Shown: positions 15,001-18,000 of the stretch, in pieces
How positions within the stretch are numbered: the first letter of the stretch is position 1
Layout: each line of letters opens with the position of its first letter
NCBI RefSeq assembly: GCF_036507355.1
Contig: NZ_AP027877.1
Strand: one strand, 5' to 3'
DNA from: Escherichia coli
GTDB taxonomy: Bacteria > Pseudomonadota > Gammaproteobacteria > Enterobacterales > Enterobacteriaceae
DNA: 64,000 nt
Program-made: the position numbers

Positions 15001-18000
15001 TACTTCCCGGTGTATGCGAACGACGGCAAACTGCTGCCGAACTTTATCTTCGTTGCCAACATCGAATCGAAAGATCCGCAGCAAATTATCTCTGGTAACG
15101 AGAAAGTCGTTCGTCCACGTCTGGCTGATGCCGAGTTCTTCTTCAACACCGACCGTAAAAAACGTCTGGAAGATAACCTGCCGCGCCTGCAAACCGTGCT
15201 GTTCCAGCAACAGCTGGGTACGCTGCGTGACAAAACTGACCGCATCCAGGCGCTGGCTGGCTGGATTGCTGAACAGATTGGCGCTGACGTTAACCACGCA
15301 ACCCGTGCGGGCCTGCTGTCTAAGTGTGACCTGATGACCAACATGGTCTTCGAGTTCACCGACACCCAGGGCGTTATGGGGATGCACTACGCGCGTCACG
15401 ATGGCGAAGCGGAAGACGTAGCCGTCGCGCTGAATGAGCAGTATCAGCCGCGCTTTGCCGGTGATAACCTGCCGTCCAACCCGGTAGCTTGTGCGCTGGC
15501 GATTGCTGATAAGATGGATACTCTGGCGGGTATCTTTGGTATCGGTCAGCATCCGAAAGGCGACAAAGACCCGTTTGCGCTGCGTCGTGCCGCACTTGGC
15601 GTGCTGCGAATTATCGTTGAGAAGAACCTCAACCTTGATCTGCAAACGCTGACCGAAGAAGCGGTGCGTCTGTATGGCGATAAGCTGACTAATGCCAACG
15701 TCGTTGATGATGTTATCGACTTTATGCTCGGTCGCTTCCGCGCCTGGTATCAGGACGAAGGTTATACCGTTGACACCATCCAGGCGGTACTGGCGCGTCG
15801 TCCGACTCGTCCGGCTGATTTCGATGCCCGCATGAAAGCGGTATCGCACTTCCGTACCCTGGAAGCAGCTGCAGCACTGGCGGCGGCGAACAAACGTGTA
15901 TCTAACATCCTGGCGAAATCTGACGAAGTGCTGAGCGATCGCGTGAATGCCTCTACTCTGAAAGAGCCGGAAGAAATTAAACTGGCGATGCAGGTTGTGG
16001 TGCTACGTGACAAGCTGGAGCCGTACTTTGCGGCAGGTCGTTACCAGGATGCGCTGGTCGAACTGGCAGAGCTGCGTGAACCGGTCGATGCCTTCTTCGA
16101 TAAAGTGATGGTCATGGTTGATGACAAAGAATTGCGTATCAACCGTCTGACCATGCTGGAGAAACTGCGCGAACTGTTCCTGCGCGTTGCGGATATTTCG
16201 CTGTTGCAGTAATAACGCCGTTATTAAAAAGCCTGCCATCTGGCAGGCTTTTTTTATCGCTAAATAATACAGCAACCTTTAATAATCTTCTGCTGAATAA
16301 AGATTATCTCATATATTAATTTTATGAGATTTTTTTAGGATTATATCAAGGAGAAGAAACAAACTTATTAAGCTAGAATAGCCACGGGTGCTTGAGACTG
16401 TTTGTCTCAGGTATTCACCGAAAGGCAGACAGAGAAAAGCCCCACCTGACTATAAATCAAAGTGTGTACTGCCCCTCTATGCATAGACACCATAAGGTTA
16501 GCCTCTTACTCGTTGGAAATCAACACAGGGGGCTGGGAATGCCGCAGAAATATAGATTGCTTTCTTTAATAGTGATTTGTTTCACGCTTTTATTTTTCAC
16601 CTGGATGATAAGAGATTCACTGTGTGAATTGCATATTAAACAGGGGAGTTATGAGCTGGCGGCATTTTTAGCCTGCAATTTGAAAGAGTAAGAGTCTTCG
16701 GCGGGAAGTTATTCCCGCCTTTCTTACGGCGTTGCGCATTCTCATTGCACCCAAATTTATTTTTCACAAAAATAATACTAGATTTTATTACGCGATCGAT
16801 TATTTATTTCCTGAAAAACAAATAAAAAAATCCCCGCCAAATGGCAGGGATCTTAGATTCTGTGCTTTTAAGCAGAGATTACAGGCTGGTTACGTTACCA
16901 GCTGCCGGGCCTTTAGCGCCGCTTTCGATGGTGAAGGACACTTTCTGACCTTCGTCCAGAGATTTGTAACCATCGTTCTGGATAGCAGAGAAGTGTACGA
17001 ACACGTCTTTAGAGCCATCGTCAGGAGTGATGAAGCCGAAGCCTTTGTCAGCGTTGAACCATTTTACGATACCAGTCATTTTACCAGACATAGTGTATTA
17101 CCTTTAATAATTAAGTGTGCCTTTCGGCGATATGGCGTGCTTTACAGATTTTGAAGCGTTAAAGGAATGTGCACTACGAGGGGTATCAACGATAACTCTT
17201 GAAGGGACTTGCCTTACTACACTGCTTTAATGGTCTGTACGTCAAACCGTTGATGTGCATTAAGCCACGCATTGGCGGGTGATGCAACAATTATTTTTCA
17301 TATTTATGATTAATCGGTTGGAAAACGGTCCTGTCATCAGGACCGTAAACAGCAATAAAGTGGATAAAAGTCTATTCCATCAACTGCTTACTTAATGCCG
17401 GGTTGGCTTGAATCAAACGCATCAATTTTAGTTCGGCACTTGAAGGCTTCACGCGTCTGGATTCCCATTCTTTTACCATGGCGACTGATACGCCCAAAAC
17501 CCGGGCGAAATCATCGATTTTTAATCCTGTCCCTTTTCGTAACTGCTCAATTTCGGTACAGGACGTTGTTCTGTGCGTCAGGGTAATTTTCTGCGTTTCA
17601 TCTTTAAAAACAATCTGTTCCAGGCTGCTCAACAGCTCATGCATTGGATCTTTATATTCCATTGAAAACTCCTCAAATCACACTGCGGGATCGTGAATTG
17701 CATCGAAGCTCATTAAGAATAGTCGGGAAAAGCAGACACAGCGGGGTGAAGTCAGGGCATGCTCTGGCTATGATTCGATTCAGCCAGTCATTTAGCGTGA
17801 CTTATAGCCACCTAACGATCTGATAAATGCCGATATATCTCTTACCACTCCTGGTTTGTAAAGATTTCGAAAATCTAACCTTCTGCGAAGGCGTAAATCT
17901 CTGGCTACAAAAAAGGCAACGGCAATATCATTTTTTAACAATGAAACAACAAATTAACCTTGTTTCATTTTCTCCATGATTTTACCAGGAAGATTACGTA

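What the first reader, a model, noticed from the sequence alone, without database searches (positions are those of the whole stretch)
16258..16821. hokA type I toxin locus without the IS150 insertion present at this site in K-12
hokA (16539..16691) sits between the glyS terminator and cspA with no IS element; in K-12 an IS150 copy (insJK) lies between hokA and glyS. The 50-aa toxin ORF is intact, so the flanking mok/sok regulatory elements might be complete and the locus potentially functional here. The overlapping mok frame and the sokA antisense RNA were not resolved by eye.
Basis: partly seen in the sequence, partly recalled or inferred. Interest (0 to 1): 0.35.

Follow-up and report, generated by a model that had tools for sequence, protein, structure and literature searches.

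The report
hokA toxin locus with IS150 scar
This is the well-known chromosomal hokA/sokA toxin-antitoxin locus of E. coli; it has no IS150 now, but a 7-base IS150 leftover shows the element was once here, and its imprecise removal destroyed the ribosome-binding site the toxin needs, so the locus is probably silent.

Summary
An intact 50-codon hokA ORF (16539..16691, Pfam Hok/Gef 83 bits) lies between the glyS terminator and cspA, with no IS element. K-12 carries IS150 at this site.

Most hok-type elements are present:
- the -10 box TAGAAT and the mRNA 5' end (tac);
- the 3' fbi box, which pairs with tac and is supported by covariation;
- a mok ATG in frame with hok;
- the sokA promoter.

The locus is not pristine. 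At 16465..16471 the bases TGTACTG, the first 7 nt of the IS150 inverted repeat, replace the AGG of the mok Shine-Dalgarno GAGG. That motif is kept in IS-free E. coli and in most hokA homologues of other genera. The left junction is the same one at which a full IS150 sits in about half of 5,426 complete E. coli genomes, in two orientations. The nearest complete genome carries the full element there. Only 31 genomes share the scar, mostly O145:H28, a lineage known to carry the IS-excision enhancer.

The scar also weakens the sokA terminator hairpin from -14.1 to -5.4 kcal/mol. The hok start codon stays buried in structure, so Hok translation probably cannot be switched on.

IS-free hokA has been known since 1999 and showed no post-segregational killing. 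This is an ordinary known locus with a small, apparently undescribed, excision scar.

The parts
16374..16379 (+). hokA promoter -10 box TAGAAT; there is no good -35 box
   Evidence: Conserved as TAGAAT/TAGAGT/TATACT 6-7 nt upstream of GGGTGCTTGAG in most hokA homologues of other genera; coordinates. The simple promoter scan did not call it because it lacks a -35. Assignment is by homology and position only.
16386..16756 (+). Full-length hokA mRNA. The 5' end is inferred from the Rfam model and homology. The 3' end is inferred to lie just after fbi and is not mapped.
   Evidence: Rfam RF01794 covers 16386..16541 (+) end to end at 99.4 bits against a gathering score of 59. The MFE fold of 16386-16756 closes the 5' end on the 3' end.
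16386..16397 (+). tac (translational activator) element at the mRNA 5' end, GGGTGCTTGAGA
   Evidence: In the full-length fold it pairs with fbi: 16386-91 with 16747-52, and 16393-97 with 16740-44; duplex -21.5 kcal/mol. In the 3'-truncated fold it pairs with AGCCCC of ucb. Compensatory changes are seen at 16397:16740 (A-T in 15 sequences, G-C in 7), 16394:16743 and 16389:16749.
16435..16446 (+). ucb / anti-SD box, AAAAGCCCCACC
   Evidence: In the ancestral allele GCC.CAC pairs with GUG.AGG.C (the mok SD) in the full-length fold, and with tac in the truncated fold. It matches the tac-stem of the Rfam consensus.
16465..16471 (+). IS150 excision scar: TGTACTG, the first 7 nt of the IS150 terminal inverted repeat, replacing AGG of the mok Shine-Dalgarno GAGG
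   Evidence: The ancestral sequence is AAAGTG-AGG-CCCCTCTATG; the window reads AAAGTG-TGTACTG-CCCCTCTATG. The left junction is identical to that of the full IS150 in L005. IS150 ends were read from K-12 and L004. The nearest genome, L053, has the full IS150 here. The scar is found in 31 of 5,426 genomes.
16479..16691 (+). mokA reading frame: ATG 16479, 70 codons, in frame with hokA and sharing its stop. It now lacks an SD.
   Evidence: There is no stop between 16392 and 16691 in the hok frame. The ATG is conserved in most homologues. K-12 annotates mokA and mokC with the same stop as hokA and hokC.
16429..16488 (-). sokA antisense RNA gene, about 60 nt here and 56 nt in the ancestral allele; the scar lies inside it
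   Evidence: The ends were transferred from the K-12 annotations: the sokA remnant 3722077..3722111 maps to window 16429-16463, and sokC 16952..17010 places the 5' end at mok +9/+10. The terminator hairpin falls from -14.1 (ancestral) to -5.4 kcal/mol (window), with 4 unpaired nt before the U-run.
16495..16523 (-). sokA promoter: -35 TTGATT (16523..16518), 17-nt spacer, -10 TAACCT (16500..16495)
   Evidence: Identical to the ancestral E. coli allele. The TAnnnT pattern is kept in homologues: TACCTT, TACTCT, and TATCCT in R1. Consensus and homology only; transcription was not tested.
16528..16532 (+). hokA Shine-Dalgarno, GGGGG here and GGAGG in K-12 and most homologues
   Evidence: The hok AUG has unpaired probability 0.0 in all four folds, that is full-length and truncated forms of both the scar and ancestral alleles.
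16539..16691 (+). hokA toxin ORF, 50 aa, with C14, C29 and C46 present
   Evidence: The protein is identical to that of L053 (annotated WP_001135738.1 there). It differs from K-12 HokA at E35G and K47N.
16700..16719 (+). G+C-rich hairpin just after the hok stop. It is the homologue of the stem-loop that ends the processed, active R1 hok mRNA.
   Evidence: Terminator-like hairpin GGCGGGAAGTTATTCCCGCC. Conserved with compensatory changes across homologues in the alignment.
16740..16752 (+). fbi (fold-back inhibition) element, TCTCATTGCACCC
   Evidence: Pairs with tac; covariation.
16668..16739 (-). ysaE homologue (23 aa), antisense to the hokA 3' end. It is a neighbour, not a hok/sok component.
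   Evidence: K-12 annotates ysaE (b4793) at the equivalent place. Translation MRNAVRKAGITSRRRLLLFQIAG compared with K-12 MRNAVSKAGIISRRRLLLFQFAG.

Best explanation
The region is the chromosomal hokA/mokA/sokA type I toxin-antitoxin locus of the hok/sok family. It is built like plasmid R1 hok/sok.

How such a locus works (mechanism inferred from R1):
- A weakly transcribed mRNA closes its 5' end (tac) on its 3' end (fbi).
- An anti-SD box (ucb) hides the mok ribosome-binding site.
- Slow 3' trimming removes fbi, so tac pairs with ucb and the mok SD is freed.
- Ribosomes translating mok open the helix that buries the hok start codon.
- The cis-antisense SokA RNA blocks the mok start region.

What is different in this window (shown by sequence):
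- An IS150 once sat in the leader at AAAG^TG, exactly where it still sits in about half of E. coli.
- It was later lost by a deletion of about 1,444 bp between 2-nt GC microhomologies.
- That deletion left 7 nt of the IS end (TGTACTG) and removed 8 flanking nt, including the AGG of the mok SD GAGG.

Predicted consequences (inferred):
- mok has no ribosome-binding site, so hok cannot be translationally activated.
- The sokA terminator and structural stem is crippled.
- The locus is a silent relic that looks intact.

The excision may have been promoted by the IS-excision enhancer (IEE) carried by O145:H28 and other STEC lineages. This last step is speculative.
For: Identity of the locus:
- Pfam PF01848 at 83 bits.
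- Rfam RF01794 at 99.4 bits over 16386-16541.
- RefSeq annotates hokA at this place in thousands of genomes.

Architecture:
- The MFE fold of 16386-16756 pairs the 5' and 3' ends; the duplex is -21.5 kcal/mol.
- 2-3 tac/fbi pairs show compensatory changes across 24 homologues.
- The truncated fold switches to a tac/ucb pairing.
- The hok AUG is fully paired in every fold.

Scar:
- The window reads AAAGTG-TGTACTG-CCCC, against AAAGTG-AGG-CCCC in IS-free E. coli (L007 and many others).
- GAGG is kept in Pseudocitrobacter, Kluyvera, Klebsiella, Citrobacter, Phytobacter, Rahnella and R1.
- TGTACTG is the IS150 terminus.
- A full IS150 with TSD AAG sits at this junction in L004, L005 and L053.
- The target of that insertion was the GAGG allele, because the right flank reads AAGTGAGGCCCC.
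- L053, the nearest complete genome over 24 kb (99.5%), carries the IS. Deleting IS nt 8-1443 plus AAGTGAGG reproduces the window, apart from one extra TG, one T in a T-run and one SNP.
- The scar occurs in only 31 of 5,426 genomes.

Functional reading:
- The Rfam score is 21 bits lower than for the GAGG allele, 99.4 against 120.2.
- The sokA hairpin falls from -14.1 to -5.4 kcal/mol.
- In R1, substitutions in the mok GAGG abolish toxicity (PMC9841398).
- There is further decay in the same lineage: strain 48 has a frameshifted hokA.

IEE:
- It promotes excision of IS3-family elements with small to large flanking deletions, and it is present in O145:H28 (PMC9397093, PMC5567499, PMC9943667).
Against: - There are no expression data for this strain.
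- SD-independent initiation at the mok ATG, or direct initiation at the hok GGGGG SD, cannot be excluded by sequence alone.
- The fold predictions are thermodynamic models of a kinetically controlled RNA.
- The junction has one more TG than the simplest deletion from an L053-type allele. The precursor was therefore an L005-type junction, or the TG repeat slipped later.
- The window's own strain is not among the complete genomes, and its IEE status is unknown. Three scar carriers (a baboon isolate, a frog isolate and O157:H7 TR01) are not O145:H28.
- Even a complete hokA (E. coli C) gave no post-segregational killing. The scar may therefore have changed little in practice.
Confidence: 0.75

Rival explanations
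1. One reading: an intact, potentially functional hokA/mokA/sokA module, because the IS150 that inactivates it in K-12 is absent.
For: The ORF is intact. The promoter -10, tac, fbi, mok ATG and sokA promoter are identical to other IS-free E. coli alleles. The K-12 HokA coding sequence is toxic when overexpressed (bioRxiv 10.1101/2025.08.07.668861).
Against: The mok SD GAGG is replaced by TGTACTG, and the ucb/SD hairpin, which is also the sokA terminator, is broken. R1 mok-SD point mutants are non-toxic. The hok AUG is buried in all predicted folds. IS-free hokA of E. coli C showed no post-segregational killing or rifampicin activation.
Confidence: 0.1
2. The scar de-represses rather than silences. 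With a damaged SokA (poor terminator, unstable RNA) and without the SD-sequestering hairpin, HokA is made more readily, for example under stress.
For: The sokA hairpin is weakened from -14.1 to -5.4 kcal/mol. The region around the mok AUG is more open in the scar allele, with unpaired probability 0.6 against 0.1 in the full-length fold.
Against: No SD-like sequence remains within 15 nt of the mok ATG. The hok AUG has unpaired probability 0.0, and the hok SD is a weak GGGGG. A constitutively leaky membrane toxin should be counter-selected, yet the allele is fixed in a successful STEC lineage with the ORF usually intact.
Confidence: 0.07
3. TGTACTG is an ordinary small indel or substitution cluster that resembles the IS150 end by chance; IS150 was never here in this lineage.
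For: The 7-mer is not rare in general: 4 copies in the window against 4.2 expected.
Against: The relevant probability is that a 7-nt replacement equals the IS end (about 6e-5) at the very junction where IS150 is inserted in more than 1,000 genomes. The left junction AAAGTG|TGTACTG is identical to L005, and the closest relative L053 still carries the element.
Confidence: 0.03

Closest known systems
hokA/mokA/sokA of E. coli (K-12 b4455/b4647/b4614; IS-free allele of E. coli C, Pedersen & Gerdes 1999 as cited in bioRxiv 10.1101/2025.08.07.668861 and PMC3562002)
   Same: Same chromosomal site between glyS and cspA. The protein is 48/50 identical to K-12 HokA. The leader, tac, fbi and sokA promoter are the same. 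Like E. coli C and about half of all complete genomes, it lacks IS150.
   Different: K-12 has IS150 plus a 38-nt deletion. Most IS-free alleles keep the mok SD GAGG. This allele carries a 7-nt IS150 remnant in its place and is shared by only 31 of 5,426 genomes.
hok/mok/sok of plasmid R1 (parB)
   Same: Hok/Gef toxin. The 5' tac and 3' fbi pair, with compensatory differences (GGGUGC/GCACCC here, GGCGC/GCGCC in R1). ucb, a mok start upstream of hok, an antisense promoter GGCTAnnnT opposite the mok/hok junction, and a G+C hairpin after the stop codon are all present.
   Different: R1 mok is in a different frame from hok (58 nt between the two ATGs); here it is in frame (60 nt). R1 has an intact GAGG SD and a canonical terminator after fbi. 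R1 mediates plasmid maintenance by post-segregational killing; chromosomal hokA has not been shown to.
hokC(gef)/mokC/sokC of E. coli K-12
   Same: Closest paralogue in layout: mokC and hokC share frame and stop. SokC is 59 nt and covers the mok start and SD. The Rfam score is 118 bits.
   Different: hokC keeps CCCGAGGCC, an intact mok SD. In K-12 it is disturbed by IS186 downstream instead (PMC3562002).
IS-excision-enhancer (IEE)-associated IS3-family excision scars in STEC
   Same: An IS3-family element was lost with a small flanking deletion at a short microhomology, in a lineage (O145:H28) reported to carry iee.
   Different: IEE dependence was not tested. IS150 itself is not named in the papers read. 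Three scar carriers are not known STEC O145.

Membership tests
[quoted passage not shown] | Small Hok/Gef membrane toxin ORF | tested here: met
   PF01848 at 83.2 bits, E 9e-24, covering residues 5-46 of 50.
[quoted passage not shown] | Conserved hok mRNA leader sequence and structure | tested here: met
   RF01794 full-length match at 16386..16541, 99.4 bits against a gathering score of 59. This is 21 bits below the GAGG allele at 120.2.
[quoted passage not shown] | Long-range 5' tac / 3' fbi pairing that closes the full-length mRNA | tested here: met
   The MFE fold pairs 16386-91 with 16747-52 and 16393-97 with 16740-44; duplex -21.5 kcal/mol. 22-24 of 24 homologues pair at every position, with compensatory changes at 2-3 pairs.
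[quoted passage not shown] | Upstream overlapping mok reading frame with a start codon | tested here: met
   ATG 16479, open through to the hok stop (70 codons), in frame as in mokC/hokC.
[quoted passage not shown] | Shine-Dalgarno of mok (GAGG), the site of translational activation and of Sok control | tested here: not met
   GAGG is present in IS-free E. coli, in most other genera and in R1. Here it is replaced by TGTACTG, and no purine-rich motif lies within 15 nt of the ATG.
[quoted passage not shown] | ucb (anti-SD) box able to pair alternately with the mok SD and with tac | tested here: inconclusive
   The ucb sequence is intact and pairs with tac in the truncated fold. Its SD partner is gone, so the ucb/SD hairpin seen in the ancestral fold does not form.
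[quoted passage not shown] | Cis-encoded antisense Sok RNA gene with its own promoter opposite the mok start | tested here: inconclusive
   The -35 TTGATT, 17-nt spacer and -10 TAACCT are intact and identical to other alleles. The gene body is present by homology to annotated sokA and sokC. The terminator stem is weakened from -14.1 to -5.4 kcal/mol. Transcription was not tested.
[quoted passage not shown] | Toxicity of Hok and post-segregational killing or rifampicin activation | not testable with these tools
   Literature only: K-12 HokA coding sequence is toxic when overexpressed, and E. coli C hokA gave no post-segregational killing.
IS150 (IS3 family) remnant | Sequence identical to the IS150 terminal inverted repeat, at a junction where the full element is found in other genomes | tested here: met
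   TGTACTG equals nt 1-7 of both IS150 ends. The left junction AAAGTG|TGTACTG is identical to L005. The full element sits at this site in about 1,133 genomes in this orientation and about 1,644 in the opposite, K-12-type orientation, with some double counting.
IS150 (IS3 family) remnant | Target-site duplication flanking the element | tested here: not met
   The full insertions have the TSD AAG. In the window the right-hand copy and 5 further nt are deleted, as expected for imprecise excision.
IEE-mediated IS excision | Presence of iee and of an active cognate transposase in the strain | not testable with these tools
   iee is not in the 64-kb window. Literature only: O145:H28 strains RM13514 and RM13516, both scar carriers, are listed as iee-positive (PMC5567499).

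The most novel reading that the evidence does not exclude
IS150 recognises the conserved ucb/mok-SD hairpin of hok leaders as a preferred target. It occupies the same few nucleotides of hokA in two orientations in about half of E. coli. In evolution experiments it lands at what appears to be the homologous mokC SD. IEE-type imprecise excision can then 'heal' the locus into an apparently intact but permanently SD-less toxin gene. This would be a natural cycle of IS-mediated silencing and scarring of a type I toxin, readable from a 7-nt footprint.
Probability: 0.45. Interest if true: 0.4.

Novelty: already known. Interest (0 to 1): 0.25.

Why it matters
The locus itself is textbook and its IS-free form is common, so the finding as stated adds little.

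The useful points are practical and evolutionary:
- An intact toxin ORF without an IS is not enough to call a hok locus functional. A 7-nt footprint outside any ORF removes the one ribosome-binding site on which toxin expression depends, and annotation pipelines label the gene as a normal hokA.
- The allele series at this site (GAGG, IS150 in two orientations, IS150 plus deletion, and scar variants) is a compact natural record of repeated IS targeting and removal at a toxin leader.
- That series could serve as a lineage marker for O145:H28 and its relatives, and as a natural substrate for studying IS150 target choice and IEE-type excision.

Tried and rejected
- I looked for the overlapping out-of-frame mok expected from R1. 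The 35-codon GTG ORF at 16462..16569 is in another frame, but it has no conserved start across homologues. The conserved ATG at 16479 is in frame with hok, as K-12 annotates for mokA and mokC, so the out-of-frame candidate was dropped.
- I first assumed K-12's IS150 was a simple insertion. The junctions show no target duplication, opposite orientation to the L004-type insertion, and a 38-nt loss.
- Rfam labels its hit 'sok antitoxin' on the + strand. The model ends in the hok AUG and is really the sense-strand hok leader, so the hit was not taken as the position or strand of sokA.
- The weak Rfam hits around 16160-16320 (STnc370, Phe and Trp leaders and others, all below gathering score) sit on the glyS terminator hairpin and were discarded.
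- The simple promoter scan found neither the hokA nor the sokA promoter, because both lack strong -35/-10 matches. Promoter calls therefore rest on homology.
- Pedersen & Gerdes 1999 (PMID 10361310) is not held, so its content is cited only through later open papers.
- No complete genome is identical to the window (best 99.5% over 24 kb), so the strain and its iee status could not be established.
- E. coli C's own allele was not retrieved.
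Full report
**1. What is there**

Window 16258-16821 is the intergenic space between glyS and cspA. glyS has its stop at 16212 and its terminator hairpin at 16230-16256. cspA lies at 16879..17091 on the minus strand, and its whole mRNA matches Rfam RF01766 at 500 bits.

The space holds a 50-codon ORF at 16539..16691 (+). Its product is MPQKYRLLSLIVICFTLLFFTWMIRDSLCELHIKQGSYELAAFLACNLKE, which matches Pfam Hok/Gef at 83 bits. RefSeq annotates the same place as hokA in thousands of E. coli genomes.

No IS150 end exists anywhere in the window. In K-12 MG1655 a 1,443-bp IS150 (insJ/insK) lies between hokA and glyS, with mokA and sokA annotated as pseudogenes on either side.

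**2. How common the IS-free state is**

- About 2,800 of 5,426 complete E. coli genomes have an uninterrupted locus.
- The rest carry IS150 at essentially one site in the hokA leader, in two forms.
- About 1,130 genomes have the element with its left end (IRL) towards glyS. It is 1,443 bp with a clean 3-bp target duplication AAG, so the flanks read ...TCAAAG|IS150|AAGTGAGGCCCC... (L004, L053).
- About 1,640 genomes, including K-12 and BL21, have it in the opposite orientation. They have no duplication and have lost 38 nt of leader carrying the mok SD, the mok ATG, the sokA -10 box and the sokA 5' half.
- The two counts overlap slightly because the two IS ends resemble each other.
- IS-free hokA has been known since Pedersen & Gerdes 1999. 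The E. coli C allele was studied and neither stabilised plasmids nor responded to rifampicin (reported in bioRxiv 10.1101/2025.08.07.668861 and PMC3562002).

**3. Anatomy compared with R1 and with homologues**

I aligned four sets of sequences:
- the window;
- an IS-free E. coli allele (L007);
- 22 hokA-like loci from Pseudocitrobacter, Kluyvera, Klebsiella, Citrobacter, Phytobacter, Enterobacter, Rahnella and others;
- an R1-type plasmid hok/sok.

The conserved elements map as follows (coordinates):

| Element | Window position |
|---|---|
| -10 box TAGAAT | 16374-79 |
| mRNA 5' end / tac, GGGTGCTTGAGA | 16386-97 |
| ucb, AAAAGCCCCACC | 16435-46 |
| mok ATG | 16479 |
| sokA -10 TAACCT and -35 TTGATT (minus strand) | 16495-16523 |
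| hok SD, GGGGG | 16528-32 |
| hok ORF | 16539-16691 |
| G+C hairpin after the stop | 16700-19 |
| fbi, TCTCATTGCACCC | 16740-52 |

- The minimum-energy fold of 16386-16756 closes the 5' end on fbi: 16386-91 pairs with 16747-52, and 16393-97 with 16740-44. The duplex alone is -21.5 kcal/mol.
- These pairs hold in 22-24 of 24 homologues, with compensatory changes at 16397:16740 (A-T in 15, G-C in 7), 16394:16743 and 16389:16749.
- Removing the 3' end in silico switches tac onto ucb. This is the same switch described for R1 (PMC9841398).
- The hok AUG is fully base-paired in every predicted form. This fits translation that depends on ribosomes coming from mok.
- mok is in frame with hok: 60 nt separate the two ATGs, with no intervening stop, giving 70 codons. 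K-12 annotates mokA/hokA and mokC/hokC in the same way. It is not frameshifted.
- SokA ends were transferred from the K-12 sokA remnant and from SokC, giving about 16429..16488 (-).

**4. The lesion**

At one place the window departs from every other sequence in the alignment.
- IS-free E. coli alleles read AAATCAAAGTG-AGG-CCCCTCTATG, that is a GAGG Shine-Dalgarno 7 nt upstream of the mok ATG. GAGG is kept in most of the other genera and in R1.
- The window reads AAATCAAAGTG-TGTACTG-CCCCTCTATG.

Four observations tie the change to IS150:
- TGTACTG is the first 7 nt of both IS150 terminal repeats.
- The left junction AAAGTG|TGTACTG is the very junction seen with the complete element in L005.
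- The IS-bearing alleles show that the insertion target was the GAGG allele, because their right flank is AAGTGAGGCCCC.
- The nearest complete genome over 24 kb (NZ_OZ197100.1, 99.5%) still has the full IS150 here and encodes the identical HokA.

Deleting IS nt 8-1443 plus the next 8 nt (AAGTGAGG) from that genome recreates the window, apart from one extra TG, one T in a T-run and one SNP. The breakpoints share a 2-nt GC microhomology.

I conclude that the window's 'IS-free' allele is an imprecise excision scar. A search specific for the scar finds it in 31 of 5,426 genomes:
- 28 are identical over 50 nt. These are the O145:H28 lineage, deer strain 48 and a few others.
- 3 have one more TG (O157:H7 TR01, a baboon isolate and a frog isolate).

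A chance origin is very unlikely. The probability is about 6e-5 for the 7-mer alone, before considering the shared junction. The motif's general frequency in the window is unremarkable.

**5. Consequences (inferred)**

- mok loses its ribosome-binding site, and nothing purine-rich remains within 15 nt of the ATG. In R1, single substitutions in the mok GAGG abolish toxicity (PMC9841398).
- The ucb/SD hairpin no longer forms.
- On the other strand that hairpin is the SokA terminator stem. It drops from -14.1 to -5.4 kcal/mol, and its base is now 4 nt away from the U-run.
- The Rfam leader score falls from 120.2 bits (GAGG allele) to 99.4 bits.

Because the hok start stays buried, I expect silence rather than de-repression. 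Consistent with relaxed constraint, the closest scar-bearing genome (strain 48) has a 1-nt deletion inside hokA.

None of this has been measured. SD-independent initiation and kinetic folding effects are the main uncertainties.

**6. How the scar may have arisen**

IS150 is an IS3-family element, per the RefSeq annotation. The IS-excision enhancer IEE of STEC promotes loss of IS3-family elements together with flanking deletions of a few nucleotides upward, using microhomologies. O145:H28 strains RM13514 and RM13516, both scar carriers, are iee-positive (PMC9397093, PMC9943667, PMC5567499).

This makes IEE a plausible agent, but it is a hypothesis. The window's strain is not among the complete genomes, and its iee status is unknown.

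**7. Recurrent targeting**

Two independent IS150 insertions sit within 2 nt of each other in hokA. In addition, an evolution experiment with E. coli B recorded IS150 insertions next to hokC (positions 16,972 and 16,989), hokE and mokB (PMC5419217). Read in K-12 coordinates, 16,972 falls in the mokC SD CCCGAGGCC. This assumes that the B and K-12 coordinates coincide here.

Whether this reflects a target preference for the ucb/SD hairpin or selection for silencing the toxin remains unexplained.

**8. Verdict**

- The feature is real and correctly identified.
- It is a member of a thoroughly known family at its known chromosomal site, and the IS-free condition is common and previously described.
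- The footprint and the allele series at this site are a neat, apparently undescribed detail of modest interest.

Noticed in passing
window 16668..16739 (-): A 23-codon ORF (MRNAVRKAGITSRRRLLLFQIAG) homologous to K-12 ysaE (b4793). It lies antisense to the 3' end of hokA, the post-ORF hairpin and the approach to fbi. RefSeq calls it 'hypothetical protein' in most genomes. Transcription of ysaE would be antisense to the part of hokA mRNA that is trimmed during activation.
   Followed up: partly
window 42525..42590 (-): Rfam rdlD antitoxin hit (89 bits against a gathering score of 50), indicating a second type I toxin-antitoxin locus (ldr/rdl type) in the window. The evolution experiment in PMC5419217 also reports IS150 insertions next to ldr loci.
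   Followed up: no
window 34200..34273 (+), 34370..34451 (-), 36687..36729 (-): Rfam gathering-level hits to a tRNA, to naRNA4 (CssrE) and to ES036 (CssrF) sRNA.
   Followed up: no
L006 (NZ_CP103718.1) 1144..1515; also L012 just downstream of fbi: Some E. coli lineages carry an extra 372-nt ORF annotated as a YidD-like membrane protein insertion efficiency factor between the hokA fbi box and the cspA terminator. The window and K-12 lack it.
   Followed up: no
L001 (strain 48) hokA; L015 (Escherichia sp. E1V33) hokA: There are independent single-nucleotide frameshifts in hokA. One is a 1-nt deletion in a T-run, giving a 43-aa ORF in the nearest scar-bearing genome. The other is a 1-nt insertion in a cryptic-clade Escherichia whose leader still has GAGG. 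These are signs of ongoing decay of the toxin in several lineages.
   Followed up: partly
L054 (K-12 16650..17150), record positions 16,972 and 16,989: IS150 insertion coordinates reported next to hokC in an evolution experiment (PMC5419217) fall, in K-12 numbering, in the mokC SD (CCCGAGGCC) and in the loop of the ucb/SD hairpin. That is the place homologous to the natural IS150 site in hokA, suggesting a family-wide hot spot.
   Followed up: partly
window 16462..16469 and L004, L005, L009-L011 junctions: The number of TG/GT dinucleotides at the left IS150 or scar junction varies between alleles: AAAG-, AAAGTG-, AAAGTGTG- and AAGTGTG- before TGTACTG. The cause could be slippage or different original target duplications; this is unresolved.
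   Followed up: partly
window 16386..16541 (+): Rfam family RF01794, named 'sok antitoxin (CssrC)', matches the sense strand of the hok leader and ends in the hok AUG. A hit to it therefore marks the hok mRNA leader, not the strand or extent of the Sok RNA.
   Followed up: yes
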